In this document: positions 1 to 17,600 of the stretch, piece after piece | Layout of the letters: every line of letters starts with the position of its first letter | Numbering within the stretch: the stretch's first letter is position 1 | Source: Eledone cirrhosa | Taxonomy: Eukaryota | Length of the DNA stretch: 64,000 nucleotides | Assembly: GCA_964016885.1 (NCBI GenBank) | Contig: OZ024742.1 | Coordinates: forward strand, 342,116,001 to 342,180,000 | Direction: 5' to 3' | Program-made: the position numbers and the translations under genes | The notes under the pieces: model-generated | Told to the model about the DNA's origin: nothing | Seen by the model: only the letters and a program-made list of their open reading frames with translations | The model's database searches: none

Positions 1-1157
1 CGTCCCAGGTTTTTTGGGGTCTACCTACTCCGTAACTTCCATCAATTTTGATCGCCCTGCACTTTTTTTATACAACTGTTGTCTTTCATGCGCATCACGT
101 GACCACACCAATGTAGTCTTCTTTCGAGTAAACAGCATCTGATCCTTCTTATTCCTAATTTCTCACTTAGTTCATTTATGCTTTGCCATTCGCATATTAC
201 ACATCCAACGGAGCATGGATGCTTCGTTCCTCTCCAGTCTGCGCAGATCCTCTGCACACAATGCCCACGTCTCACTGCCATGTAGCATTGCTGTTCGTAT
301 ACAGGCATCATACAATCTGCCTTTCATTTTTAGCGAGAAACCTTTAGTGGCCAATAGTGGTATTAGCTCTCTGAACTTTTTCCATCCCGTTCTGACTCTG
401 GCTACTGAACTGTCAGAGCACCCTCCACCACTGCTGATTTTGTCACCCAGGTAACGGAAAGTGTCCACTATTTCTATAGAACCATCTGGGCAATAGAAGG
501 AGATAGTATCCTGTGGGCACTTGCTACTTATTGCACCTGAGCATCGGCCACATATAAAATCTACGTTATTAGATAGCTTACCTGTAATCCCACTACATCT
601 TTTATGTACCCATTGTTTGCATTTGGGACATAAAATGGAATTTCTGCCTACTCCATTCCTACACACTGAGCATGGCCATTTCCCAGAGGGTTCCTGTACC
701 CTATTTTCCTTTCTACATACTAGAACTTTAGTCTTAGACAAGTTAACTTTAAGGCCTTTTGATTCTAGGCCATGCTTCCATGTTTGGAATTTCTTCTCTA
801 GTTCAGTCATCGATTCTATGAGAGTTAGATCATCTGCATATAGAAGTTCCCATGGGCAGCCGGTCTTGAACTCCTCTGTTATAGCCTGAAGGGCAATAAT
901 AAATAGGAGGGAGCTAAGGACAGAGCCTTGATGAACATCAACTATTCATCAACACCTAGTTTTCTAAGAGCCCACCAGATAATGGAGCAGGGGACGCTGT
1001 CAAAGGCTTTCTCCAAGTCAACAAAAGCTAAGTATAGGGGTTTACTTTTAGCTAGGTACTTCTGTAGTTGTCGTACAAGGAAAAGAGCGTCCGTGGTACT
1101 TTTACCTGACACAAACCTAAACTGCATTTCATCTAGATCAATTCGTTCTCTGATTAG
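1..1157 (-). mobile_element. RTE-clade non-LTR retrotransposon fragment (copy A): RT, PHD-like finger and C-terminus; 5'-truncated, decayed, runs off the left edge
   Basis: Minus-strand translations give RT motifs QFRFVSGKSTTDALF, LYLAFVDLEKAFD, HQGSVLS, ELLYADDL, GLKVNLSKTKVL, FRYLG and the RTE C-terminal [16 protein letters not shown] / RRLHWCGHVMRM / GRPQKTW. There are stops and frameshifts, and a ~88-bp internal deletion near 940 relative to copy C. The 5' end abuts a TA run at 1158. Confidence 0.93.
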
Positions 1158-1189
<32 letters not shown>

Positions 1190-1215
1190 ATGTAATAAAC
1201 AACATAAGGCAATTA

Positions 1216-1275
1216 TTCCATTTACCAGTGGTTTCTTAAAAGCAAAAGGTTTTGCTTTCAATCCTCAGAATGAAA
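1216..1275 (-). ncRNA. Type I hammerhead ribozyme motif (HHR-1)
   Basis: Minus strand reads UUUCAUU-CUGAGGA-UUGAAAGCAAAA CC UUUUGCUUUUAA-GAAA-CCACUGG-UA^-AAUGGAA. It has intact CUGANGA/GAAA/UH boxes, a 7-bp stem I, a ~12-bp stem II, a short stem III and a GUA cleavage triplet. Confidence 0.8.
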
Positions 1276-1465
1276 AATCCTGGTTTGTTTATTGAATATG
1301 GATTCTAAAAACAAAAATGCAATCTATATGAAAGTGAGGCTGGAAAAAGGAGAAGGAAAGGAAAAATAAAATAAAATAAAACTACACATGCAAACACACA
1401 CAAAAAAACACAAAAGCATACTAACACATTTATATATCGGACTTTTCTGATGGAATTACTTCATT

Positions 1466-1838
<373 letters not shown>

Positions 1839-4492
1839 ATCATCATCATCATCATTTTACGTCCGCTTTTCCCTGCTTGCAAGGGTGGGACGGGTTTTAT
1901 TCAGCACAGCATCTCTCCACTTGCCACGGTCCTTCGTCATCTCCACCACGAGCTTCAGCGATCTGAAGTCTGTTCTCACCACCTCCACCCATGTTTTTCG
2001 TGGTCTACATCTACCACGTCTTCCTTCAACTGGAATTTCCTGGCACTTCTTTACCCATCGTTCATCCTCCATGCACATCACATGTCCATACCACCGCAGT
2101 CTCTTCTCTTGCACACTACATTCTATCCCTCTCAGACACAGTTTCTCTCTCAACACACCCATGCTGGGTCGCTCACGCACGTTGACATTGCACATCCAAC
2201 GGAGCATGCTTGCCTTATTTCTCTCCAGCCGTCGCATATCCTCTGCAGTTGCTGCTCATGTCTCACTACCATGCAGCATCGCGCTCCTCACACAGGTATC
2301 ATATAACCGGCCTTTCGTACGCAGGGAGAAACGCTTCTTCGTCAGCAGAGGAAGCAGCTCCCTAAACTTCTTCCAACCCGTCCTTATTCTAGATACTATG
2401 GCTTCGGAACACCCCCTCCCATGCTAATCTGATCTCCTAGATACCGGAAGCTATCCACCACTTCTATAGAACCTGCCTGCATTTGAAAAATGTGTCTATC
2501 AATGCGACTTCTACTGTCTAATTTCTCTGTATGCATACGTATTTCTACCTACCTGTTAGTTTGCCTGCTATCCCACTACATCTCTTGTGTACCCAGGATC
2601 TGTATTGTGTGCATTTTATAGAATTTATGCCAGTTCCGTTTCTGCATATTGACGGAATCAGGAATTTTGTCCTCTTTTCTACTCCTCAACACTTTTGTCT
2701 TAGCTAGGTTCACTCTCAGTCCTCTTGCTTCCAACTGCTGTTTCCATAGCCATAATTTATTCTCTAGCTCCTCTACTGATTCTGCTATAAGAACCAGATC
2801 GTCAGCATAGAGAAGTTCCCATGGACAGCCAGTCTTAAACTCCTCTATTTTGGCTTGGAGGACTATTATGAACAAGACCGGGCTGAGGACCGAACGCTGA
2901 TGTACTCCTACTTGTATCTGGAATTCCTCACTAAACTCCATTCCTACCCTGACTTTACTGACAGCACCTCTGTACAAAGTTTGCACTGTCCTCACAAGCC
3001 ATTCCTCAACACCTAGTTTCCTTAGGGACCACCAGATGACAGATTGGGGTACCCTATCAAAGGCCTTCTCTAGGTCAACAAAGGCTAAGTATAGTGGCTT
3101 ATTCTTCTCTAAGAACCTCTCTTGTAATTGTCTCACCAAGAAGAGGGCATCTGTTGTACTTTTCCCAGGCACAAAACCAAACTGCATCTCATCTAGTTTG
3201 ACCCTTTCTCTAATTAGTTGTGCTAATATCCTTTCTGCCACTTTCATAACATGATCCATCAGTTTTATACCCCTATAATTGCTCATCTTCAGGGCATCCC
3301 CTTTACCTTTGTAGCAATTTATGAGAATACTGCTGCACCAGTCTTTGGGTATGGCACCACCATATGTAGCCTTATTGATGATGCGTGCAACCAGTTTAGT
3401 GCCTACGTCCCCTGATGCCTTCAGCATCTCAGCAACTATCCCCGACCGTCCAGCAGCCTTACAATTTTTCATTTCCTTAATGGCCTCTTGGACCCTATAT
3501 TCGTCAATCTCAATAGCTGGTCCCTCTGTCGGATCTACTGAGGGGAATTTTTCTCTCTCCTATTCGTTCTCCACATTCATCAGTCTCTCATAGTGACATT
3601 TCCAGGCCTCCTTTTTCTGATCATTCGTGACACTAAGTACACCGGCATCATTCCGGACACATTTATCTCCAACAACATCCTGATTTGCATTGACACACTG
3701 CCTTGCAATGTGGAACACCGCATGCTCTGATCTTCCCGTCGCAGAACATTGGCACACCTCCTACTCTCAGCCTCCCTGCGTGATAAGTACACCTGACGTC
3801 GAGCTTCTCTCTTAGCGGCTGTATATCCTTCTCTACTCCCACCCTTTTTCCAAGCCTTCCATGCTAGTCTTTTGTCTCTAATGGCTTTATCTACTATGCT
3901 GTTCCACCACCAGGTCACTCTCTGTCTGGCTGGAACTCTGCTCCAGCCACAAGTTTCACCAGTAGCCTGCAGTAAGTTGTCACGTACAAAATTCCAGTTA
4001 TTATCTATGTCATACATCTCTAAATCGTCTTATTTTTCGTCATACACATCTTGAAGAGCTTTCCTAAATTTGTATTTTAGTGAAAGGTCTTTTAGCTTCC
4101 AGACCTTTCTTCTCCACACCTTCCTGTATGTCTCATTCCATCTCTTGCTTACTGAGATATCACTAACGACTAACCTATGCTGTGGGGTAGATTCTTCCCC
4201 AGGGTATGCCTTGGTATTTGACACCACCTGCCTGTCCTGCTGCCTAACTAGTAAGAAGTCAATCTGGCTTATGTGCTCACCAGATTTGTAGGTTACTAGG
4301 TGGTTGGCAGTTTTCTAGAAGTCAATCTACTTGTATCACAAAATTCAAGGAGTCTCACTCCTTCTTCATTTCTTGAGCCGTAACCGTGCCCACCATGTAC
4401 CCCAGTGTAACCATCCTGGAGCTGTCCAACATGACCATTGAAGTTCCCTGTTAGCATAACGATGTCTCCGTCCTCTGTCATTGCAGTTGAGA
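1839..4492 (-). mobile_element. RTE-clade LINE (copy B, different subfamily), 5'-truncated within the APE endonuclease, decayed
   Basis: Minus-strand fragments include the APE C-half (GNFNGHVG, GYGSRNEEGVRLLEFC, QIDFLL, PQHRLVV), TWWWN, RT (NYRGIKL, QFGFVPGKSTTDA, AFVDLEKAFD, LLYADDL) and the C-terminal [17 protein letters not shown]. The 3' (ATG)n tail appears as (CAT)n at about 1839-1855. Multiple frameshifts. Confidence 0.95.
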
Positions 4493-4580
4493 TTTTAAAA
4501 AAAGCCCCTTACACAACTAACATTTTCAAAAATAAAACTTGAGTCGATTTAAGTCTTACTTCAAATCAATATATATATAT

Positions 4581-5165
4581 ATAAAAATTAGAATTGTTGC
4601 TCTGAAATAGCTATATATATATGAATGTATATATAGTGTATTTTGCAATACACTGTATGCTTCATAAAAAGCATTTTGAAGACCTTATGCTATTGTTTTA
4701 AAGTAGTGACAGACTCACTTACTTTAATTTCAGCAAACAGGGGGAGATAAAGCTGACAAGGCCTTGTTTCTGCATTTATTGATGCTTATCAAAGCCAATA
4801 TATACAGCTATATATATAGCCAATATATATAGCCAATATATATAGCTATTTCAGAGCAACAATTCTAATTTTTTATTTCTGCTTGACCGGCAACCGCTCT
4901 GTATAATCAGTTCCTGATTATTTACTAGAATTCTATAAGAACCAAAACATCCAGGTTTTCAGCAAACAGGAGGAGTAGTTGGCTTTGATAAGCATCAATA
5001 AATGCAGAAACAAGGCCTTGTCAGCTTTATCTCCCCCTGTTTGCTGAAATTAAAGTAAGTGAGTCTGTCACTACTCTAAAACAATAGCATAAGGTCTTCA
5101 AAATGCTTTTTATTAAGCATACAGTGTATTGCAAAATACACTATATATACATTCATATATATATA
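4581..5165. repeat. Two interleaved inverted repeats (~40 bp: 4581-4620 / 4836-4876; ~187 bp: 4612-4798 / 4979-5165)
   Basis: Direct reverse-complement comparison: ATGAATGTATATATAGTG...TATCAAAGCCAA matches TTGGCTTTGATA...CACTATATATACATTCAT with very few mismatches, and AATTAGAATTGTTGCTCTGAAATAGCTATA matches TATAGCTATTTCAGAGCAACAATTCTAATT. Confidence 0.9.
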
Positions 5166-6211
5166 TCTATATATATAAAACTGAGGTTGTCTGTCTGTCT
5201 ATCGATTTTTGGCACACATCTCCTCTTAAAATCTCTCACGGAATTGCACCGAAATTGCTATACTTGTACATTGAGCCCTAGCGAAGACATCGGAAAAAAA
5301 AAATTTCAAATTGACCCGCCCTATCTGACGAAATCGAATATAATGTATCGATTTTTGAGCGTAAGTGATCAGTTATTTCCCTTTGTTCTGTTTACATTGA
5401 GCGTCTGCGTGCAAAAATTAAAAAAATTACGCTGGCTTTCTCAGCGTTAGCCTTTTAAAACAATATTTTTACTTGAAAACAAGTCTATTTAAAGACTACG
5501 TAAAACAAGCAAATATTTCGTAAAAAAAAGCAAAAATTATATAAGTTTATTTAAAATATATGTATCTGTAAATTTCGTTAGGCGTGCAGACAGACAGTCG
5601 TGCAGACAGACAGTCGTGCAGAGAGGTGATATAGGCGTGCAGACAGATAGTCGTGCAGAGAGGTGATATAGGCGTGCAGACAGATAGTCGTGCAGAGAGG
5701 TGATATAGGCGTGCAGACAGACAGTCGTGCAGAGAGTTGATATAGGCGTGCAGACAGACAGTCGTGCAGAGAGGTGATATAGGCGTGCAGACAGACAGTC
5801 GTGCAGAGAGGTGATATAGGCGTGCAGACAGACAGTCGTGCAGAGAGGTGATATAGGCGTGCAGACAGATAGTCGTGCAGAGAGGTGATATAGGCGTGCA
5901 GACAGACATAACTGATAATTTGGTTACGCTAATGTTTTTCTCTGCGTTGCAGTGTTTACATTTTCGATCTTTGTTAATAAATAACCAGTGCAGTTTTTAT
6001 CCCCAGCATCCTCTTTTGTTATAACATTCGGGTTATCGTTGTTTTCTTAACTTCATAAGGCATATTGTTGGTTGAGGGAATATTAATCAAAAACACCACA
6101 TGCAAGTCTGCACAGTAGACACTACAGTTTTTAAGCCAAAAAAGAAACTTAACATTGTAACTTTAACACAGCTACTGAGCGACCCCGAGCAACGCCGGGT
6201 TTTACTGCTAG
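5166..6211 (+). mobile_element. Non-autonomous Helitron
   Basis: Starts A|TCTATATATATAAAA followed by a (GTCT)n tract. Ends with a GC-rich hairpin CCCGAGCAACGCCGGG (6184-6199) 8 nt before CTAG|T (6208-6211). Inserted between A and T with no TSD, matching canonical Helitron termini. Confidence 0.85.
5579..5907. repeat. 37-bp minisatellite (~8.5 copies) inside the Helitron
   Basis: Unit TAGGCGTGCAGACAGACAGTCGTGCAGAGAGGTGATA, with GGCG recurring at 5634, 5671, 5708, etc. It is built from a 16-bp CGTGCAGACAGACAGT subunit, present as an extra copy in the first monomer. Confidence 0.95.
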
Positions 6212-6488
6212 TATATATATATAATAATAATAATACTCATCTTGAAGTTCTTGAAGAGATAAGACACACTTGACTCTGAAAGGCTAAAATGAATCACTAG
6301 AACTGCTTAACCACGTTCCAGCCATCCATCCATACAATCTTCCAGGTATCCCCCTATTTCCTAATTGCAAATGTTCCACTCACACAATTATTACTATATT
6401 TATCATCTCACGAGCTTCCACAACATATTTATTTTTACCTTCATTTTCTTTTCCCATGCTGTCCCTCTACGAACTCATCTACTCTCTT

Positions 6489-6570
6489 CCTCTCTCTTAC
6501 ACTATTATTAGTTGTTGTATTTATCATTTCCTCTCTCTTACACTATTATTGGTTGTTGTATTTATCATTT
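6489..6570. repeat. 41-bp tandem duplication (2 copies)
   Basis: CCTCTCTCTTACACTATTATT(A/G)GTTGTTGTATTTATCATTT starts at 6489 and again at 6530. Confidence 0.9.
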
Positions 6571-6844
6571 CGCTGTCTCTACGAAGTCATCTACTCCTAT
6601 CGGTTTATTTTGCCATGAGATGCTACAGGCCATGATGGCTACCTACCTCACAATTTCCCTCCCTCCCGTCCCCTCACACCACCATAGCCTATTCGACCAA
6701 TCAAACCTCAGCATGCCCCCCACCCCCCACAAACCCTGCCATTTCTACTACTACCTAACTCTCTCCTCCCTTGTCCCAGTCCCAACACACCCTGCCATTA
6801 TTACCACTGTTCTTCTAGCCCTGAATTTTCCTACCATTATGTAT

Positions 6845-9800
6845 GGATGAGCTGAGAATAAATGGAGCAACTCTGAATTAATAGATGAAAATTAATATGA
6901 ATCCACGAGCTACCAAGCACCCATGTGAAGCTCCAATTCAGAGACAGGAAGCACACACACACCCCTGCAAAAATCGACCCTCCCCTACGAATGTTGACAA
7001 ATGACCAAAACTCAAAGTTGGTACCATCAATGTAAGCACAATGAAAGGAAGAGCAGGAGAAATCGTAGAAATGCTGGAGCGAAAGGAAATTGATGTATGC
7101 TGTGTGCAAGAGACTAGATGGAGCGGAGAGTCTGCTAGAGTCCTTGTAGGAAAAGGTCAGTGCTACAAATTTTTCTGGGTGGGAAATGACGATGGGATGG
7201 GTGGTGTAGGTATACTACTAGCTGACAAGTGGGTAGATAAAGTAATCTCAGTGTACAGGGTAAATGCAAGAATCATTAAACTCAGACTAGTCCTGAATAA
7301 AACAATTACCACAATAATATCAGCTTACGCACCCCAATCGGGGTTGCCAGACGAACTTAAGGATAGGTTTTACGAGTCCCTAATGCACACTACTGCTCTA
7401 ACAAACGACAATGACTTCCTAATCATTGCAGGAGATTTTAACGGACACGTAGGTAAACACTGTGACGGCTTCAATAGAGTCCATGGAGGCCATGGGGTTG
7501 GCACAAGAAATGAGGAAGGATTCAGACTTCTAGAATTCTGCGACGCCAATGACATGTTGATATGTAACACAAACTTAAAAAACCCGATAACCACCTGATC
7601 ACCTATAGATCAGGGGAACATTCTAGTCAAATAGATTTTATCCTCATCAGAGGATGTGACAGATGGACAGTCGTAAACACAAAAGCCTACCCTAGTGAGG
7701 AATGTACCTCCCAACATAGTTTAGTTGTCAGCGACCTCACGGTCAGGACTAGACGAACCTGGAAGCAGAGGCGAACCTGGAGAAGAAAGATCTGGAAGCT
7801 GAAAGTCCCCTCAGCCAGTAACAGATTTAAAGATATTTTACTCAATGCCTATGACAGTAAAGAAGAACAGATAGAGACATTCAATGTAGAAGAGCACTGG
7901 GAGTTCCTAAAAAATAACTTACTAGAGGCGACGGATGAGATCTGTGGCTGGATTAAGACCACAAGCAGGAGGAGAGTGACTTGGTGGTGGAACAATAAGG
8001 TAGATGAGGCAGTTAAGGCCAAGAGACAGGCATGGAAAGAATGGAAGAATGGGGGAAGCAGGGTACATTACATAGAGACAAAGAGGGAAGCTAGGCGACA
8101 AGTATACTTAGCTAGGAGGGAAGCAGAGGATAGAAAATTCAAGCATGTTTTGCAACGTGAGGACCAGAAACAGGAGGTATTCAAGATTGCGAGGCAGTGT
8201 GTCAGAGAGAATTGTGATGTCATTGGAGAGAAGTCTATCCGGAATGATAAAGGTGAGCTTGCCCTCACAAGTGCTGAGAAGAAAGATGCATGGAAGAGCC
8301 ATTATGATAGATTACTAAATGAGGAGAATGCATGGGAAGAAGAGACCCTACCCCAAGTAGACCCTATAGAGGAGCCAGCAGTATAAGTCAGCAGCAGTGT
8401 ATTAAGTAAGGCAATCAAAGATATGAAGATGGGGAAGGCAACCGGTCCATCGGGTATAGCTGCTGAGATGCTGAAGGCATCTGGGTATGTAGGTCACACT
8501 ATAACCACACGTATTGTTAACCAGGTAATACTAGAAGGTGTCATACCAAAAGATTGGTGCAGTAGCATCATTGTCAACTGCTACAAAGGTAAAGGTGATG
8601 CACTAGATAGAGGAAACTATAGAGGTATAAAGCTGATGGACCAGGTCATGAAAGTAACAGAAAGAGTTATAGCACAGTTGATTAGGGACCGGGTGAAACT
8701 AGATGAGATGCAATTTGGGTTTGTACCAGGAAGAGGCACCACTGATGACCTCTTCCTTGTGAGACAGTTACAGGAAAAGTACCTAGCTAAAAGTAAGCCA
8801 CTCTACCTAGTATTCGTCGATCTCGAGAAAGCCTTTGACAGAGTTCCATGTGCTATAATCTGGTGGGCTCTTAGAAAACTAGGAGTAGATGAATGGCTTG
8901 TGAAAGCTGTACAAGCCATGTATAGGGGAGCAGTCAGCAAAGTTAGGATTAGCAATGAGTATAGCGAGGAATTTAGCTTACAGGTTGGTGTCCACCAGGG
9001 CTCTGTTCTTAGCCCTCTCCTGTTCATCATAGTCCTGCAGGCAATAACGGAGGAGTTTAAGACTGGATGCCCATGGGAACTCCTGTATGCAGATGAGCTC
9101 GCACTTATAGAATATATGGTAGAACTAGAGAAGAAATTCCAAACTTGGAAGCAGGGACTAGAAAGAAAGGGTCTCAAAGTCAACATGACAAAGACTAAGG
9201 TCCTTGTAAGTAGATGAGAAAACAGAACCCAGATCCCCTCAGGGAAATGGCCTTACTCAGTATGTAGGAAAGGTGTAGGTAGGAACTCCATTCTCTGCCC
9301 CAAATGCAAACAATGGGTACACAAGAGATGTAGCAGGATCTCAGGAAGCTTAATTAAGAATGTAGGCTTCACATATAGCAGCTGTGCTGGGACAGCAAGC
9401 AGCAAACAGCCACAGGAAACAAGTACCACCAATCTCTGGGAGGGCTCTGTAGAAACAGTAGACAGCTTCTGCTACCTAGGTGACCGAATTAGCAGCAGAG
9501 GTGGGTGTTCAGAAAGTACAATAACTAGAGTAAGAACGGGATGGAAGAAGTTCAGGGAGCTACTGCCACTGCTAGCTGCAAAAGGCTTCTCCCTCAAAAT
9601 GAAAGGCAGACTGTATGATGCGTGTATCCGAACAGCAATGTTACATAGTAGTGAGACCTGGGCACTGAAGGTGGAAGACTTATGTAGATTAGAAAGAAAC
9701 GAAGCCAGCATGCTCCGATGGATGTGTAATAGTAATTATACACGAATGGCAAAGCATAAATGAATTGAGAGAGAGACTGAGCATCAGAGGAATCAAATGC

Positions 9801-10347
9801 TGTGTGCAGGAGAGGCGGATGCGTTGGTATGGACATGTGATGCGTATGAAGGATGACAGCTGCATAAAAAGGTGCAGAGCACTAGAAGTCAATGGAAGCC
9901 GTGGAGTGGGGAGACCCAAGAAGACCTGGGATGAGGTGATAGGGCCGACCTTACCCAGTTGCACCTCTCAAAGGCGATGACACACGACCGTGACCTCTGG
10001 CGTCATGCAGTAATACAGAGTACCTGCCTTCCCATGGGGACAAGCTGAAGCATATAGACAATATGCCGCCACACCCTCCCACTGCAAAGTGGTTGTGGAG
10101 GTGCCACAGCAAAAAAGCACCCAGCCCACACTGTAAAGTGGACGGGTAGGCGCCACGGAAAAAAGCACCCAGCACTCACTGTAAATGAGGTTGGTGTTAG
10201 GAAGGGCATCCAGCTGTAGAAACCAAGCCAAAATCAGTTCCTGTATGAGCAAGGCATGGTCAGCCGACAAGACACTGCCCACAACAGGACAACCCGTCTA
10301 ACCCATGCTAGCATGGAAGAACGGACGTAAAACGGTGATGATGATGA
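6845..10347 (+). mobile_element. Near full-length RTE-clade LINE (copy C), single APE-RT ORF now disrupted; 5' boundary approximate
   Basis: APE from about 7010 (KVGTINVSTM, DVCCVQETRW, GVGIL, ISAYAPQ, IAGDFNGHVG, SQIDFIL, SQHSLVV), RT at 8423-9217 and C-terminus to about 10000. In-frame stops at 8384 and 9215, frameshifts, and catalytic YADD changed to YADE. The 3' UTR ends in the palindrome CCATGCTAGCATGG (10303-10316) and a (GAT)n tail at about 10336-10347. Confidence 0.95.
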
Positions 10348-10503
10348 CTATTTATAGTTATGTATATACTATAAACAGGAAAGGTCAGTAATTTATTACT
10401 ACCTTATTACCAGTAACAGAAATAGTTCAATGTAAGAACATCAGGTGTTTTACAGAGCAGGAATATAAATTACACAAGTATCAAAGTTATGTTCAAATCA
10501 TTT

Positions 10504-10555
10504 AATCGCTGACAATTGTTTCTTCCAAACTTTAGTTTGGAGTCATCGGAGCATT
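10504..10555 (-). ncRNA. Minimal type I hammerhead ribozyme motif (HHR-2), U4C core variant
   Basis: Minus strand reads AAUGCU-CCGAUGA-CUCCAAAC UAAA GUUUGGAA-GAAA-CAAUUG-UC^-AGCGAUU. It has a palindromic 6-nt stem III and a GUC triplet, with one core change (CUGA to CCGA) and a mismatch at the base of stem II. Confidence 0.65.
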
Positions 10556-10942
10556 ATCAATATTTGTACATATAATTAACCTCCTATTCAACTGAACAAT
10601 CATATAGTTACATATATGTTGATGTTGTGAACAACAGTTTAGTATATATAGGGTGGAATGGATGTGATATATATTATACGAGAATTGTACAATAATTAAA
10701 ATTAAAATTAAAAGCACAGAGTGGAATACATGCGACAGATAATACAAGAGAATAGTCTAATAATTAAAGAGGCATTGAGAAAGTACATATTCAAGCGTGT
10801 AGAGATTGCACATCTGTTAGTCATATATATGGGAAGGAAACAAGCAAAGGTATTAGGTATATATGAATACTGTATGGCAAGGTATTACATACAATTTATT
10901 TGATTTATTTAATTGTGTAATTTATACTTTATATATATATAT

Positions 10943-11180
10943 AGGTGTTAAGGTGCAGGTTAATTGCATCCGTAGGTGGTATGCCAGATGAGCACTCGAT
11001 GCTCTTGGGGAGCAGATATCAATAGTATTAATATATAAGGGAACAAAGGAGCAGTGTTGCATCATATACATATTTAATTACATATTACATATGTTTCACT
11101 GTCGATCAGCTCAAGGAACAATCTATTAATGATCGAACCTGACTCGGAAATCAGAAACTCCTCAGACATGTAGACTCACG
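10943..11180 (-). mobile_element. Short TA-flanked, hammerhead-bearing repeat (Penelope-like pseudo-LTR / retrozyme-like remnant)
   Basis: A ~240-bp unique block bounded on both sides by (TA)n, with HHR-3 near its minus-strand 5' end. The family assignment is inferred only from the known link between minimal hammerheads and Penelope-like elements. Confidence 0.45.
11079..11172 (-). ncRNA. Type I hammerhead ribozyme motif with enlarged, branched stem II (HHR-3)
   Basis: Minus strand reads UACAUGU-CUGAGGA-[~60 nt containing hairpins CUGAUU/AGUCAG and UCGAUCA/UGAUCGA]-GAAA-CAUAUG-UA^-AUAUGUA. It has a 7-bp stem I, a palindromic stem III and a GUA triplet. Confidence 0.7.
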
Positions 11181-11191
11181 TATATATATAT

Positions 11192-11457
11192 AACAATACG
11201 TCGTGCAGCATAGTAATTACAGCATGTGTGTGTATATATATATATATATATACACACACCGATTGAACCTGGGATAAACATATATATATATATATGTGTG
11301 TGTTTATCCCGGGTTCAATCAATGTGTCATCATTTCATCATCATCATCATTTCATTTTACGTCCACTTTTTCCCGACTTGCAAGGGTGGGACACAAGGGT
11401 GGGACATATATATATACACACACATGCTGCAATTACTATGCTGCACGACGTATTGTT
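11192..11457. repeat. Nested inverted repeats (~50 bp: 11192-11242 / 11406-11457; ~27 bp: 11254-11280 / 11301-11327)
   Basis: AACAATACGTCGTGCAGCATAGTAATTACAGCATGTGTGTG matches its reverse complement ending at 11457 with 1 mismatch. GATTGAACCTGGGATAAACA matches TGTTTATCCCGGGTTCAATC across a TA run. Confidence 0.9.
11328..11405 (-). mobile_element. Extremely 5'-truncated RTE 3' end (copy-B subfamily)
   Basis: (CAT)n followed by TTTTACGTCCACTTTTTCCCGACTTGCAAGGGTGGGAC matches 1841-1891. The CAAGGGTGGGAC segment is duplicated at the junction. Confidence 0.85.
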
Positions 11458-11533
11458 TATGGGTGACAAATTATGATATCTAAATAAGATCTACATAGAA
11501 TCCACCACACTACACTGTTCTTCTATAATACAT

Positions 11534-11971
11534 TTAACCCTTTCATTACCATATTTCTAATAAAAAAAATAGCCCAAAATTTCGAAAATAATCAAGAATA
11601 TGGAGGGATTGAGTAACATAGCTAACTTTCTTGTTGTTAAATTGGTTTTTGGAGCATAACTTAACAAAGGTTCTTACATAAAATTATGATGAAAAACTTT
11701 ACATAAATATAAACTTAAAACCATTTTGTTACCATATTTCTAATGCAAAACACTACCTAGGGTTTCAAATAATTTTGAAAATAATCAAGAATTTGGATGG
11801 GTTTAATAAATTTAATTCATTGTTAAGTTGGTTTGGGGAACAGAAATTAACAAAGGTTCTCACATAAAATTATTTTGGAAGGTTTTAACATAAATATGAA
11901 CATTTTAAAATGGGCAGTGTGTATCATAGAAACTGAAACAGTTTCAGGTGGGTTGGTATAAAATTGGTTAA
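11534..11971. mobile_element. Old piggyBac-like MITE with a ~180-bp internal tandem duplication
   Basis: Begins TTAA|CCCTTTCATTACC and ends with degenerate GGTATAAAATTGG|TTAA. The module TTACCATATTTCTAA...GAAAATAATCAAGAAT...TTAACAAAGGTTCT.ACATAAAATTAT...ACATAAATAT occurs twice (from about 11534 and 11715). Confidence 0.5.
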
Positions 11972-12052
11972 TACAGCAAAACATAATGTTCTTTTATAGT
12001 ATATTTCATTCCTGTGTGGGATTCAGCATAATACTCTTCTATAAGACAGATA

Positions 12053-12371
12053 TATATTCATGAAGCCATAACTCCTGATGGATTCATTGGGATGCTGTAG
12101 TGACATATGACATTTTAAACCTTGTGGAGCCCATCCCTTCTCCAGGTCGAACACAGCTGATTCTTCCAGAGAAGGAGAGAGAGAGAGAGGAATAGAGTGG
12201 AAGGAGGAAAGAGATATTGAGAAAGTAAAATCAACCCTTGTACTGGTACTCTTTATTGGCCTCAAAAGAACAAAAGGCAAAATTGACCTCGGCAGGATTT
12301 GGAGAGAGCCGGAACAAATACCGCAAAGCATTCTATCCAACATTCTAATGACTCAGCCAATTCACTGCCTG
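12053..12371 (-). mobile_element. Diverged tRNA-type SINE insertion with 13-bp target-site duplication
   Basis: The minus strand starts GGCAGTGAATTGGCTGAGTCATTAGAATG...GCGGTATTT...AAATCCTGCCGAGGTCAATTTTGCCTTT...AGTACCAGT, resembling abundant octopus SINE heads (recalled, not searched). It is flanked by TATAAGACAGATA at 12040-12052 and 12372-12384. Confidence 0.65.
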
Positions 12372-12777
12372 TATAAGACAGATAATAAAGACAAAATATT
12401 TGTATGTTTACATATTTTATTTTAGTTACAATATAAGTACTGTATGAAATTTAATCGAGTTTTTGTTTTTGATTTTGAGACTGATGCACTGCTTGCTTCA
12501 ATTGAGGAAGGAAGCCTCTGCATAGCCATTCAGTTGCTAGATATAGCAGCGAAATCTCTCTCAAATCACACCCCATCATATAAAAATATAACAAAAAAAA
12601 AAAAAAGAGAAATAAGAAATAAGAAAGACAATAAATGATGTCGTCCATATATCTATGTCTGAATAAATAACATGATGGTCATGTTTGGAATGTCTTTCAT
12701 TTGCTGAATCTAGGGTGACCTTGGGCTAAACAACAACAGTGATACAAAAGTTTTTGTTGTTGAACATTTGTATTTTA

Positions 12778-12830
12778 TGTGTATGTATGTATATATATGC
12801 ATACACACACTTATATATATGCGTGTGTGT

Positions 12831-12873
<43 letters not shown>

Positions 12874-13084
12874 TGTGTGTACGTATATGTGTATGTATGT
12901 ATATGCACACATGTTTATGTATATATGTATGTGTCAGTGTATATATATATATTTGTATATGTATGTATATGCACACATACTTATATATATGTATGTGTGT
13001 GTGTATATATATATGTGTATGTATGTATATGCACACACACCTATATGTATGAGTGTATATATATATATATATAATATGTGTATA
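12778..13084. repeat. Compound (TA)/(TG)/(TATG) microsatellite
   Basis: Low-complexity alternating purine-pyrimidine tract with the recurring motif GTATGTATGTATATGCACACA. Confidence 0.9.
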
Positions 13085-13382
13085 TTTAATGTGGTGTTAA
13101 TCTTCAGTTTCATAAACCAATTTTAAAGAATGGATACACAGCCTGGAATGTTTTTGTAAAATCTTTATATAAATATTTTTATTTTAGTTTTTTTTTTAAC
13201 TATTAAATTCCCCAAATATTTTCAGACACTTTTCCTTCATTAGAAATAGTGGTAATTATATTTTAATTTATTTTATTTCATGCATTTAAATTTGTCTTAT
13301 GATTTTTTTTATTAACTTTTTATTATTATTTAGTTATATTTATTCAATGATTTATTTGTTTATTTTTAATCAAACTTATGCT

Positions 13383-13663
13383 TATATATATATATATAAT
13401 ATATATGATTATATACATACATATATATATATATATATTTATACACATACATAGATACATACATACATACATAGATATATATACATGCATACATAATTAT
13501 ACACATAGATAGATATATACATACATACATACATATACATACATACATACATACATACATACATACATACATACATACATACATACATACAATTGAATGT
13601 GGTGCCCCAGCATAGCTGCAGTTCAACGACTGACAAAAGTTAAAAGAACACACACACACACAC

Positions 13664-13703
<40 letters not shown>
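13383..13703. repeat. (TA)n, (CATA)n and (CA)n microsatellites
   Basis: Visible simple repeats, including a pure (CATA)n at about 13537-13590 and (TA)n at 13667-13703. Confidence 0.9.
13591..13648 (+). mobile_element. Probable SINE 3'-end fragment embedded in microsatellite
   Basis: GGTGCCCCAGCATAGCTGCAGTTCAACGACTGACAAAAGTTAAAAGAA resembles a common octopus SINE tail (recalled, not searched). Confidence 0.45.
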
Positions 13704-13707
<4 letters not shown>

Positions 13708-13950
13708 CATCATCATATATATATTTTCGAGGGGAATACAAAATAATCTTTCTAATTAAAAATTTTGAATATAAACTACTATCACTACTACTACCACTAT
13801 TACTACTACTACAGTTTCCACTATAACATTATTATTATTTTAGTATAGTAATTTTTATGATAATAATAGTAATGAGAAATATGCTAGTAATTTTCATTGT
13901 TGTATTATTATTATTTTTATTATTATTTTTTTAATTATTATTATTAAATT

Positions 13951-14077
13951 AAAATACCAGTAAAGTACTGGGGTCGATATAATCGACTTTCCCCTCCCCC
14001 CAAAATTTCTGGCCTTGTGCCTATAGTAGAAATCATTATTATTATTATTATTATTACTATTATTATTATTACTATTA
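13951..14077 (+). mobile_element. SINE 3'-end fragment with (ATT)n tail
   Basis: TACCAGTAAAGTACTGGGGTCGATATAATCGAC..CCCCTCCCCCCAAAATTTCTGGCCTTGTGCC followed by (ATT)n. It shares the TACCAGT motif with the SINE at about 12240-12250. Confidence 0.6.
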
Positions 14078-14382
14078 AAATTTTTTTCACATATTTTCAT
14101 TCATATGAAAATATGTTTTCCTTCTTTGATTATAGTTTTGTTTTCTGAAATGTAAAAAAAAAATATTTTTTCCAAAAATATAAATAAATTTTGTTCTGTT
14201 TTCTTCATTTCATTTCATCTGACACTTAAAAAAAATAATAATAATAAACAAAACAAAGAAATTTTTTCTTATGTTTTCTGCAATGTTTTTCCGCACTGTT
14301 CTCAATGTTTTCTCTAGAGTTTTCCACACTGTTTTCCACAATGATCAAAATGATCAGAATCTTTCAAAATTACCCCCTCAAG

Positions 14383-14546
14383 CTACCTCTTGTCTTTTTG
14401 CCCATAGAAAGTAAAATATCGTGCATATTCCTGTGACTTCACAGTCGTTGCACTAACTGCACTTCTTGGGTAGAGAATGTCTGCACGAGGAGACCATGTC
14501 CGATTGTAGGGATCGTAGCATTCCACAGTTGATATTACAGTTTGAC
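14383..14546 (-). CDS. Terminal coding exon of a Kelch-repeat (BTB-Kelch, KLHL10-like) gene
   Basis: A polypyrimidine tract and acceptor TTTTATTTCATATTTTATTTTTCAG| precede 14546 (phase 1). The exon encodes (G)QTVISTVECYDPYNRTWSPRADILYPRSAVSATTVKSQEYARYFTFYGQKDKR*, with TAG at 14385-14383. VECYDP...W...RSA is the last Kelch blade, and the RSA(V/L)S end resembles KLHL10. Upstream exons are outside the window. Confidence 0.85.
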
Positions 14547-14672
14547 CTGAAAAATAAAATATGAAATAAAAGAGAATTTTAGTGAGATACATTCTGGAAG
14601 GTTCTATGGTCATATATAAGGGCCCCTTGAGACTATTGTAATAGTGGTAGAAGAGTCAGAGAGAAGATACAG

Positions 14673-17600
14673 GAAATATATGAGCTACAGTGGCGTTAAA
14701 TATATGAGATCCAGTGATATGAAGTATGTCAGCTCCAGTGGTATGAAGTATGTGATCTACAGTGATATGAAGTATGTGATCTCCAGTGGTATGAAGTATG
14801 TGATCTCCAGTGGTATGAAGTATGTCAGCTCCAGTGGTATGAAGTATGTGATCTACAGTGGTATGAAATATGTCAGCTCCAGTGGTATGAAATATGTCAG
14901 CTCCAGTGGTATGAAGTATGTAATCTCCAGTGGTAAGAAGTATGTCAGCTCCAGTGGTATGAAGTATGTGATCTACAGTGGTATGAAGTATGTGATCTCC
15001 AGTGGTATGAAGTATGTGATCTACAGTGGTATGAAGTATGTGATCTACAGTGGTATGAAGTATGTGATCTACAGTGGTATGAAGTATGTGATCTACAGTG
15101 GTATGAAGTATGTCAGCTCCAGTGGTATGAAGTATGTGATCTACAGTGATATGAAGTATGTGATCTCCAGTGGTATGAAGTATGTCAGCTCCAGTGGTAT
15201 GAAGTATGTGATCTCCAGTGGTATGAAGTATGTGATCTACAGTGGTATGAAGTATGTTAGCTCCAGTGGTATGAAGTATGTGATCTACAGTGATATGAAG
15301 TATGTGATCTCCAGTGGTATGAAGTATGTCAGCTCCAGTGGTATGAAGTATGTTAGCTCCAGTGGTATGAAGTATGTGATCTACAGTGGAATGAAGTATG
15401 TCCGCTCCAGTGGTATGAAGTATGTCAGCTCCAGTGGTATGAAGTATGTGATCTACAGTGGTATGAAGTATGTGATCTCCAGTGGTATGAAGTATGTGAT
15501 CTCCAGTGGTATGAAGTATGTGATCTCCAGTGGTATGAAGTATGTGATCTACAGTGGTATGAAGTATGTGATCTACAGTGGTATGAAGTATGTGATCTCC
15601 AGTGGTATGAAGTATGTGATCTCCAGTGGTATGAAGTATGTGATCTACAGTGGTATGAAGTATGTGAGCTCCAGTGGTATGAAGTATGTGATCTACAGTG
15701 GTATGAAGTATGTGATCTACAGTGGTATGAAGTATGTGATCTCCAGTGGTATGAAGTAGGTGATCTCCAGTGGTATGAAGTATGTGATCTACAGTTGTAT
15801 GAAGTATGTGATCTACAGTGGTATGAAGTATGTGATCTCCAGTGGTATGAAGTATGTGATCTCCAGTGGTATGAAGTATGTGATCTCCAGTGGTATGAAG
15901 TATGTGATCTACAGTGGTATGAAGTATGTGATCTACAGTGGTATGAAGTATGTGATCTACAGTGGTATGAAGTATGTGAGCTCCAGTGGTATGAAGTATG
16001 TGATCTACAGTGGTATGAAGTATGTGATCTACAGTGGTATGAAGTATGTGATCTCCAGTGGTATGAAGTATGTGATCTCCAGTGGTATGAAGTATGTGAT
16101 CTACAGTGGTATGAAGTATGTGAGCTCCAGTGGTATGAAGTATGTGATCTCCAGTGGTATGAAGTATGTGATCTCCAGTGGTATGAAGTATATGATATCC
16201 TGTGGTATGAAGTATGTCAGCTCCAGTGGTATGAAGTATGTGATATTCTGTGGTATGAAGTATGTGATCTCCAGTGGTATGAAGTATGTGATATCCTGTG
16301 GTATGAAGTATGTCAGCTCCAGTGGTATGAAGTATGTGATCTACAGTGGTATGAAGTATGTGATCTACAGTGGTATGAAGAATGTGATCTACAGTGGTAT
16401 GAAGTATGTGATCTACAGTGGTATGAAGTATGTGATCTACAGTGGTATGAAGTATGTGATATCCTGTGGTATGAAGTATGTGATCTCCAGTGGTATGAAG
16501 TATGTGATCTACAGTGGTATGAAGTATGTGATCTCCTGTGATATGAAGTATGTCAGCTCCAGTGGTATGAACTATGTGATCTACAGTGGTATGAAGTATG
16601 TGATCTACAGTGGTATGAAATATGTAATCTCCTGTGATATGAAGTATGTCAGCTCCAGTGGTATGAAATATGTGATCTACAGTGGTATGAAGTATGTGAT
16701 CTACAGTGGTATGAAGTATGTGATCTACAGTGGTATGAAGTATGTGATCTACAGTGGTATGAAGTATGTGATCTCCAGTGGTATGAAGTATGTGATCTAC
16801 AGTGGTATGAAGTATGTGATCTACAGTGGTATAAAGTATGTGATCCCCAGTGGTATGAAGTATGTGATATCCTGTGGTATGAAGTATGTGATATCCTGTG
16901 GTATGAAGTATGTGATATCCTGTGGTATGAAGTATGTGATATCCTGTGGTATGAAGTATGTGATCTCCAGTGGTATGAAGTATGTCTGCTCCAGTGGTAT
17001 GAAGTATGTGATCTACAGTGGTATGAAGTATGTGATCTCCAGTGGTATGAAGTATGTGATCTCCAGTGGTATGAAGTATGTCAGCTCCAGTGGTATGAAG
17101 TATGTTAGCTCCTGTGGTATGAAGTATGTGATCTACAGTGGTATGAAGTATGTCAGCTCCAGTGGTATGAAGTATGTCAGCTCCAGTGGTATGAAGTATG
17201 TGATCTCCAGTGGTATGAAGTATGTGATCTCCAGTGGTATGAAGTATGTGATCTCCAGTGGTATGAAGTATGTGATCTCCAGTGGTATGAAGTATGTCAG
17301 CTCCAGTGGTATGAAGTATGTGATCTCCAGTGGTATGAAGTATGTGATCTACAGTGGTATGAAGTATGTGATATCCTGTGGTATGAAGTATGTGATCTCC
17401 AGTGGTATGAAGTATGTGATCTACAGTGGTATGAAGTATGTCAGCTCCAGTGGTATGAAGTATGTGATCTCCAGTGGTATGAAGTATGTGATCTACAGTG
17501 GTATGAAGTATGTGATCTCCAGTAGTATGAAGTATTTGATCTCCAGTGGTATGAAGTATGTCAGCTCCACTGTTTGAAGTATGTGATATCCTGTGGTATG

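What the first reader, a model, noticed from the sequence alone, without database searches (positions are those of the whole stretch)
11079..11172. Hammerhead with an unusual ~60-nt branched stem II (HHR-3)
Seen: a perfect core, a 7-bp stem I and a palindromic CAUAUG stem III. Stem II is replaced by a domain of two hairpins (CUGAUU-UCCG-AGUCAG and UCGAUCA...UGAUCGA) closed only by a weak GUU/AGU helix, which suggests a multi-way junction. Standard hammerhead searches with short stem II limits would probably miss this. Inference: a structurally novel hammerhead variant carried by a ~240-bp TA-associated element.
Basis: partly seen in the sequence, partly recalled or inferred. Interest (0 to 1): 0.75.

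Follow-up and report, generated by a model that had tools for sequence, protein, structure and literature searches.

The report
Long-rod hammerhead in Penelope retrotransposon
This is a decayed tail-end copy of a Penelope-like jumping gene carrying a hammerhead (predicted self-cutting) RNA motif whose second arm is 61 bases long and is predicted to fold as one unbranched rod, not the branched shape first proposed, with a small conserved patch that likely serves as a docking site for the element's own protein.

Summary
The motif is real: minus strand 11172-11079, intact core, palindromic stem III, GUA site, 61-nt stem II. It lies in a 237-bp, TA-flanked, 5'-truncated copy of a repeat family; a strict pattern gives 604 genomic hits against 0 for the control. 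Longer copies lead about 2 kb upstream to Hydra-clade Penelope-like endonuclease remnants. The proposed two-hairpin junction is not supported. The branched look comes from six decay mutations in this copy, and its 7-bp stem I from a 10-nt deletion. A GAGUC/YGAGC patch is shared by all six family majorities while the rod's tip is not. Rfam misses the motif. Listed animal Hydra-clade arms are 12-26 nt; spike-moss PLEs reach about 50. Cleavage, dimer dependence and protein docking are untested; no RNA run was listed. The scan has already noted other long-armed hammerhead families on other DNA of this and other genomes. Verdict: new variant of a known kind, interest 0.4.

The parts
10944..11180 (-). 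5'-truncated 3' end (pseudo-LTR region) of a Hydra-clade Penelope-like element, family A; 237 bp, (TA)n on both sides
   Evidence: 84-92% identical to other copies over ~220-230 bp; colinear with copies that carry the endonuclease remnant upstream
11166..11172 (-). Stem I 5' strand of this copy (UACAUGU), brought next to the core by a 10-nt deletion; the family strand is ACAUAU
11159..11165 (-). Hammerhead core C3-A9, CUGAGGA
   Evidence: majority core of family A
11098..11158 (-). 61-nt stem II arm, predicted unbranched rod: base helix (11158-11150 with 11106-11098), 2-nt bulge, 3-bp helix, conserved inner patch, apical hairpin
11141..11145 (-). GAGUC, 5' side of the conserved inner patch
   Evidence: Identical in all 6 family majorities; exact in 35 of 52 aligned copies
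11109..11113 (-). YGAGC, 3' side of the conserved inner patch
   Evidence: GAGC identical in all 6 family majorities; YGAGC exact in 37 of 52 copies
11114..11140 (-). Apical part of the rod (AGG/CCU helix, U-U loop, 5-bp hairpin, 7-nt loop); sequence of the tip differs between families
   Evidence: 0 of 21 tip columns shared by all families
11087..11097 (-). Core GAAA and palindromic stem III segment ACAUAUGU (2 bp + 4-nt loop as a monomer, 8-bp duplex in a dimer)
   Evidence: self-duplex -7.0 kcal/mol; segment palindromic in 94 of 130 A/B motifs
11085..11086 (-). Predicted cleavage site after GUA (between 11086 and 11085)
   Evidence: Hammerhead consensus (established knowledge); not observed in RNA
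11079..11085 (-). Stem I 3' strand AUAUGUA
   Evidence: stem I covaries between families (columns 8-94 and 9-93)
10944..11026 (-). Optional ~83-nt 3' tail; most copies stop about 59 nt past the cut site, this copy runs to about 142
   Evidence: 31 of 49 family A copies end at +51 to +64, 11 of 49 at +137 or beyond

Best explanation
This is a 5'-truncated, decayed 3'-end copy of a Hydra-clade Penelope-like retrotransposon with a type I hammerhead motif whose 61-nt stem II is predicted to fold as one unbranched rod; in the active parent RNA the ribozyme likely cut only as a dimer, and the rod's conserved inner patch likely served as a docking site for the element's own reverse transcriptase-endonuclease. 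Shown: core, palindrome, family, link to Hydra-type endonuclease remnants about 2 kb upstream, two 3' end classes, 5' inversions, TA targets, covariation of the rod. Predicted: as a monomer, family A mispairs the stem I 5' strand with its own palindrome (3.5 kcal/mol below the hammerhead fold); pairing of two palindromes would remove this and free the right register. Inferred: the protein binds the rod, helps the ribozyme fold, and starts cDNA at one of two sites about 59 and 142 nt past the cut site, which would give the two end classes. This particular copy is probably inert. My odds: PLE origin 0.93, rod rather than junction 0.9, parent ribozyme active as a dimer or with protein help 0.75, protein docking as the reason for the conserved patch 0.45.
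For: Family and control: 604 vs 0; 2,537 vs 43 for a looser pattern that also takes other families. PLE link: family A endonuclease remnant with CxCX5C, YIG, CxxC and CRH motifs at L184 5232-5780, colinear non-coding DNA, hammerhead at 7606-7725, 88% to the window; same order in L408 and L416; family B likewise; these motifs define the Hydra clade in PMC8557442 section 11 and Fig. S7. End classes and 18 of 49 copies with an inverted copy within 350 nt upstream match PLE structure (PMC8557442; PMC11167929). Rod: columns 30-70 C-G 35/U-A 14, 31-69 A-U 34/G-C 11, 20-77 U-A 17/A-U 15/C-G 7, 24-74 U-A 15/C-G 11; 14 pairs with two-sided change, 14 of 500 shuffles as high. RNAalifold on family majorities gives the rod in 3 of 3 selections; predicted pair probabilities 0.92-0.94 for GAU/AUC and 0.00 for both proposed hairpins in all 8 majorities. 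Energy of A1 majority: rod -17.6, branched -5.5 kcal/mol. Patch conserved in 5 of 5 and 4 of 4 columns while tip 0 of 21. Palindrome kept through different sequences (ACAUAUGU, ACGCGCGU, ACCAUGGU). Protein-assisted cleavage shown for the anole PLE hammerhead (PMC11167929).
Against: No cleavage, expression or binding data. RNAalifold on the 52 raw genomic copies found no consensus fold of the arm at all, so the rod rests on named-structure counts and family majorities. Compensatory changes reflect a handful of lineage events among related families, not independent samples; 'further pair types' did not exceed shuffles (301 of 500). On families A+B alone the two models paired about equally (82.8% vs 86.0%). 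Arm majorities are only modestly stable (z -0.7 to -3.0). The conserved patch may simply be young shared ancestry. No copy was found in which reverse transcriptase, endonuclease and the family A hammerhead are all contiguous; Pfam did not recognise the family B remnant. In the anole element the protein-binding region lay in the first 172 nt of the ORF, hammerhead mutants did not affect insertion, and no RNA-seq ends were seen at the cut site.
Confidence: 0.55

Rival explanations
1. The long arm serves catalysis itself: the mismatch near its base or the inner patch makes the tertiary contact with stem I that the terminal loop of a 4-bp stem II makes in fast hammerheads, with no protein involved.
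For: Fast hammerheads need stem I-stem II contacts (PMC3088659 passages). Families A-E all keep an irregular spot 3-7 pairs from the core.
Against: Stem I is short (3-6 bp near the core) and its sequence differs between families while the patch does not; the patch lies 12-14 pairs from the core, likely too far for so short a stem I (inference).
Confidence: 0.2
2. The arm is a tolerated insert that only has to stay base-paired so as not to disturb the core; its shared letters are common descent, with no specific partner.
For: Stem II tolerates length changes (established knowledge); this genome holds unrelated arms of 49-78 nt; only six related families were compared.
Against: Length held at 59-62 nt and patch identical across majorities only 45-56% alike (A-C, E versus D, F) while neighbouring pairs and the tip turned over; bulge positions kept.
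Confidence: 0.2
3. One reading: stem II opens into a multi-way junction with two hairpins, possibly as an alternative fold of a switch.
For: Both hairpins can form in this copy (predicted probability 0.18 each); hairpin 1 pairs in 81% of cells because GAU and GUC are conserved.
Against: Hairpin 2 58% paired; pairs with two-sided change below the shuffle mean (11 vs 12.1; 435 of 500 as high); 10-16 kcal/mol above the rod in majorities A1, A2, A3, B, C, E; probability 0.00 in all 8 majorities.
Confidence: 0.05
4. In tandem arrays the hammerhead and its arm lie upstream of the next ORF and help cap-independent translation after cleavage.
For: Viral type I hammerheads promote translation initiation (PMC13725137 passages); PLEs occur in tandem with the pLTR upstream of the next ORF.
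Against: No tandem pLTR-ORF junction was seen for these families; 'long' helix II there means 6-8 bp; no test here.
Confidence: 0.07
5. The 237-bp unit is a non-autonomous retrozyme or SINE that replicates as a small circular RNA.
For: Most copies are short and lack an ORF; animal retrozymes derive from PLE pLTRs (bioRxiv 10.64898/2026.07.22.740005).
Against: 5' ends are ragged and extend stepwise to the endonuclease; neighbouring copies seen were mostly inverted, not head-to-tail arrays (Tandem Repeats Finder shows none at the site).
Confidence: 0.05

Closest known systems
Hammerheads of Hydra-clade Penelope-like elements (Craig et al. 2021, PMC8557442, section 11, Files S1, S2, Fig. S7; includes Hydra-1_Obim)
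   Same: Type I order, palindromic stem III, position at the 3' end, (TA)n targets, C-terminal endonuclease with CxCX5C, CxxC and CxH motifs.
   Different: Listed animal arms between A9 and G12 are about 12-26 nt (23 in Hydra-1_oBim; counted by eye from File S2) against 59-62 nt here; listed elements are mostly under 3 kb with the hammerhead close behind the ORF, here about 1.4-2 kb of non-coding DNA separates endonuclease and hammerhead.
Minimal and variant hammerheads in PLE pseudo-LTRs (Cervera and de la Pena 2014, PMC4209133)
   Same: Short palindromic stem III predicting dimer cleavage; many sequence families per genome; mostly single truncated copies; inverted pairs close together.
   Different: [quoted passage not shown]
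PLE-X1 hammerheads of spike mosses (PMC8557442 File S2, marked as deviating from the canonical structure)
   Same: PLE hammerheads with about 54 and 48 nt between the core boxes (counted by eye): a precedent for long arms.
   Different: Plants, endonuclease-less clade; listed as a 4-9 bp stem with a large loop, no covariation analysis, no evident sequence relation.
Poseidon PLE of the green anole, PAc (Frangieh et al. 2024, PMC11167929)
   Same: Hammerhead near the 3' end, optional tail defined by two reverse-transcription start sites, AT-rich targets.
   Different: Different clade; tail 30-40 bp against about 83 nt here; its hammerhead overlaps the ORF start.
Metazoan non-LTR retrozymes (PMC7229834; bioRxiv 10.64898/2026.07.22.740005)
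   Same: Type I hammerhead in short repeats related to PLE pLTRs.
   Different: Retrozymes are head-to-tail tandem units; these copies are ragged 5' truncations of a coding element.

Membership tests
Type I hammerhead ribozyme | Core CUGANGA ... GAAA ... UH in canonical order | tested here: met
   invariant columns (partly fixed by the search patterns)
Type I hammerhead ribozyme | Three helices around the core, stem I open | tested here: met
   Stem I covaries between families; stem II base G-Y, C-G; stem III 2 bp; constrained monomer folds
Type I hammerhead ribozyme | Reaches the Rfam Hammerhead_1 gathering score | tested here: not met
   No hit in the window; 16 bits against 34 in 2 of 5 related loci; the model has 45 positions, so a 61-nt arm is penalised
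Type I hammerhead ribozyme | Self-cleavage at the NUH site | not testable with these tools
   No bench assay; no RNA run listed
Type I hammerhead ribozyme | Canonical loop I-loop II tertiary contact | tested here: inconclusive
   No terminal loop at the canonical distance; an irregular spot near the arm base might substitute
PLE dimer-type hammerhead | Short palindromic stem III | tested here: met
   94 of 130 A/B motifs and 44 of 71 further motifs have a perfect 8-nt palindrome, the rest mostly single CpG-type changes
Hydra-clade Penelope-like element | C-terminal GIY-YIG-type endonuclease with CxCX5C linker, CxxC and CxH motifs upstream of the hammerhead | tested here: met
   Family A: L184, L408, L416; family B: L161, L163; motifs compared by eye with PMC8557442
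Hydra-clade Penelope-like element | Reverse transcriptase in the same ORF (DKT, RWK motifs) and phylogenetic placement | tested here: inconclusive
   No family A copy with contiguous RT found; the family A endonuclease piece is 62% identical to a 627-aa open frame with a Hydra-like RT 3' part (L415); no tree built
Hydra-clade Penelope-like element | Insertion into (TA)n | tested here: met
   Window copy flanked by TA runs; most 3' ends followed by TA-rich sequence
Penelope-like element | 5' truncation, 5'-inverted copies, optional 3' tail | tested here: met
   18 of 49 with upstream inverted copy; end classes 31 and 11 of 49
Non-LTR retrozyme | Head-to-tail tandem units with fixed length and no coding parent | tested here: not met
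   Ragged 5' ends leading to the endonuclease; no tandem array at the site
Loop E / sarcin-ricin or K-turn motif (recalled consensus, no call) | AGUA/GAA strands, or 3-nt bulge followed by tandem G-A pairs | tested here: not met
   Patch reads AGUC/YGAG, by eye; UC/GA can pair by Watson-Crick rules (49 and 37 of 52 cells of the commonest pair)

The most novel reading that the evidence does not exclude
A clade of Hydra-type Penelope elements has grown hammerhead stem II into a ~60-nt rod bearing a sequence-specific recognition patch (GAGUC/YGAGC) for its own reverse transcriptase-endonuclease, coupled to a built-in off state in which the monomer mispairs with its own palindrome; protein binding or dimer formation would switch cleavage on and position cDNA initiation, making this a natural protein-gated hammerhead.
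Probability: 0.2. Interest if true: 0.7.

Novelty: new variant of a known kind. Interest (0 to 1): 0.4.

Why it matters
The role of hammerheads in Penelope-like elements is open: they cut slowly, need dimers or protein, and were dispensable for insertion in the one reconstituted system (PMC11167929). A family whose stem II carries a covarying rod with a conserved patch gives a defined handle: delete or scramble the patch and measure binding, cleavage and cDNA start sites. It also shows that Rfam and short-arm descriptors undercount hammerheads in such genomes (over 2,500 long-spaced motifs here). The host element and the ribozyme class are known, and this copy is probably dead.

Tried and rejected
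Branched two-hairpin model: rejected. A first structure-blind mutual-information test was uninformative because my anchored alignment put families D and F one base out of register; its D and F constrained energies are invalid and were not used. RNAalifold on 52 raw copies found no arm fold, only three pairs over the GAAA box; I read these as lineage coincidence. An open frame through the family A arm is shifted in family B, so coding was dropped (by eye). No RNA holder listed; the three listed runs are contigs of one sample and only show the family as DNA, about 2,000 contigs each. Metagenome scan: 9 matches, none with hammerhead cores. Viral scan: 120 matches examined, 1 with a 4-bp stem I and no palindrome, read as chance. 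Pfam found nothing in two family B frames. The endonuclease frames in L041, L161 (343) and L187 (2392) and the RT piece in L095 belong to other, neighbouring PLE insertions and were not counted as parents. The covariance model R1 was run on window 1-15000 only, not on the genome, so family sizes rest on patterns. The paper on dimer cleavage of PLE hammerheads (Lunse et al., PMC5785218) was not available; it is cited only through a review. Literature searches returned no description of a ~60-nt stem II in animal PLE hammerheads; most subscription papers, the supplements of PMC4209133 and PMC3088659 (descriptor limits; not opened) and bioRxiv supplements were not seen.

Full report
Observation. 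On the minus strand the window reads stem I 5' strand (11172-11166), CUGAGGA (11165-11159), a 61-nt insert (11158-11098), GAAA, the palindrome ACAUAUGU (11094-11087), A17 at 11086 and stem I 3' strand (11085-11079). It sits in a 237-bp stretch, 10944-11180, between TA runs. Folded alone the 94-nt motif is no more stable than shuffles (z 0.04). Rfam reports no hammerhead in the window at E up to 1.

Family. The window lies in a 3.0-Gb animal genome; that it is an octopus is my guess from recalled SINE tails and is untested. The DNA search gave 2,065 first-look candidates, 40 scored. A strict pattern gave 604 exact matches against 0 for the reversed control; a looser pattern that excludes most of those gave 2,537 against 43. 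The matches fall into family A (the window's) and relatives B-F with 59-62 nt arms, whose majority arms are 45-93% identical, plus unrelated long-arm families. Compared with family A, this copy has lost 10 nt just upstream of the core, so its 7-bp stem I is an accident; the family pairs ACAUAU with AUAUGU. Its arm carries six substitutions relative to the A1 majority, three of them CpG decay.

Host element. Walking upstream through longer copies (for A; 28, 35 for B) leads through 1.4-2 kb of non-coding DNA to a broken endonuclease. In L184 the remnant (5232-5780) shows CxCX5C, YIG, CxxC and CRH motifs, the DNA behind it is colinear with other family A copies, and the hammerhead at 7606-7725 is 88% identical to the window. 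L408 and L416 show the same order; family B does too. A and B endonuclease pieces are 45-50% identical. These motifs are those that Craig et al. give for the Hydra clade (PMC8557442 section 11 and Fig. S7 text). Pfam did not recognise two family B frames, and I found no family A copy with contiguous RT; the A piece is 62% identical to a 627-aa frame with a Hydra-like RT end. Of 49 family A copies (duplicate L062 and reference L026 left out), 31 end 51-64 nt past the predicted cut, 11 run to 137 or beyond, 7 end elsewhere; 18 have an inverted copy within 350 nt upstream. Optional tails, 5' inversions and TA targets are PLE hallmarks. The window copy has the long tail and no inversion.

Rod or junction. 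The arm holds four GAUC-like words, so several registers can be drawn. On 103 A and B copies the two models paired about equally (82.8% and 86.0%), but only the rod had a two-sided change in the arm shared by many copies (C-G 43, U-A 45), while the proposed hairpins broke in 45-48 copies at three pairs. I then aligned 52 copies chosen by hand from six families (the 103 and 52 are subsets of about 200 motifs fetched, chosen for full length and balance). The rod's inner helices paired in 87% of cells, with C-G 35/U-A 14 and A-U 34/G-C 11 at adjacent pairs and three pair types at the arm base; 14 pairs changed on both sides, reached by 14 of 500 shuffles. The junction model gave 81% for hairpin 1, 58% for hairpin 2, and 11 two-sided pairs, reached by 435 of 500 shuffles. 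On family majorities RNAalifold returned the rod in all three selections, and predicted probabilities of both proposed hairpins were 0.00 in all eight majorities but 0.18 in the window copy. Constrained energies for A1 were -17.6 (rod) and -5.5 kcal/mol (junction); for the window copy -6.2 (rod-like) and -4.8. The branched look is therefore a product of decay. Against: RNAalifold on the raw copies found no arm fold, the changes stem from few lineage events, one diversity measure did not beat shuffles, and majority arms are only modestly stable (z -0.7 to -3.0).

What is conserved. All six majorities share GAU/AUC, GAGUC and GAGC (5 of 5, 4 of 4 columns), whereas 0 of 21 tip columns and 0 of 4 columns at the bulge and next helix start are shared. 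The patch can be read as two Watson-Crick pairs between a 2x1 purine loop and a bulged pyrimidine; it does not match the loop E or K-turn consensus as I recall them. The stem III segment is a perfect 8-nt palindrome in 94 of 130 A/B motifs and stays palindromic through different sequences in other families, as expected for dimer cleavage (PMC4209133; review PMC6765202). In the family A monomer the predicted best fold pairs the stem I 5' strand with the palindrome instead of the true partner, 3.5 kcal/mol below the hammerhead fold; B, C and D monomers also have folds 4-8 kcal/mol below it, and the window copy 10 below.

Mechanism. Most likely the parent element's RNA carried this motif near its 3' end; two motifs in a tandem transcript, or one helped by the element's protein, would cut after GUA; the protein would start cDNA at one of two downstream sites and insert into TA runs, often stalling early, which gives short copies such as this one. 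The rod keeps 61 nt out of the core's way, and its fixed patch is best explained as a recognition site. The first part follows from the cited PLE work; docking is inference (0.45), with a tertiary-contact role and neutral insert as main rivals. In the anole element cleavage needed the protein but was not needed for insertion, so the ribozyme's role may be minor.

Comparison and novelty. Animal Hydra-clade arms in File S2 of PMC8557442 are about 12-26 nt, spike-moss PLE-X1 arms about 48-54 nt (counted by eye); 'large' or 'long' helix II elsewhere means 6-8 bp. Eight searches gave no description of such an arm in animals. Papers seen: PMC4209133 parts 1-2 of 4 and passages; PMC11167929 parts 1-2 of 4; PMC8557442 passages, section 11, supplement parts 1-2 and search passages; bioRxiv 10.64898/2026.07.22.740005 part 1 of 5 and passages; PMC3088659, PMC6765202, PMC7229834, PMC13725137 passages only. 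Earlier notes of this scan report other long-armed hammerhead families in this and other genomes; none matched this sequence. They pointed me to the Hydra clade and to the docking reading; I tested the clade link here, not the docking. Verdict: real, new variant of a known kind, interest 0.4.

Noticed in passing
window 10502-10559, minus strand: A second hammerhead motif 520 bp away: core CCGAUGA (U4C variant), 7-bp stem II with a 4-nt loop, palindromic stem III, GUC site.
   Followed up: partly
window 1214-1278, minus strand: A third hammerhead motif, CUGAGGA with a 26-nt stem II and GUA site, next to a TA run.
   Followed up: no
family B, e.g. L035 1495-1592: The majority core is CCGACGA (U4C): 12 of 17 copies fetched by upstream sequence alone; CUGA and CCAA forms look like CpG decay. 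U4C lowers activity in vitro but is tolerated in a viroid (PMC3088659 passage).
   Followed up: partly
family B, about 300 nt upstream of the hammerhead (L093, L094, L096, L101, L107): A second core-like pair, CUGAUGA and GAAAC 6 nt apart, conserved in the 3' untranslated region; no palindrome follows.
   Followed up: no
L184 5780-7600; L161; L408: These Hydra-type families have 1.4-2 kb of non-coding DNA between endonuclease and hammerhead, much longer than the published elements imply.
   Followed up: partly
L192, L198, L206, L212, L214, L217, L382, L385, L386: Further hammerhead families with 49-62 nt arms unrelated in sequence to this one, each with its own palindrome.
   Followed up: no
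window about 11191-11235 and 11416-11458; 11260-11322: A ~43-bp inverted repeat pair brackets a TA-centred hairpin directly beside the element's 5' end (by eye); MITE-like.
   Followed up: no
window 14710-64000: A 24-bp satellite of about 2,054 copies with strong GC skew fills three quarters of the window.
   Followed up: no
window about 1-1150 (-), 1860-4310 (-), 6960-10030 (+): Decayed LINE-like coding remnants with CAT-repeat tails, RTE-like by recall (by eye).
   Followed up: no
window about 4570-5160 and 5599-5908: A TA-flanked repeat with an inverted partial copy, and a 37-bp tandem array of 8.4 copies.
   Followed up: no
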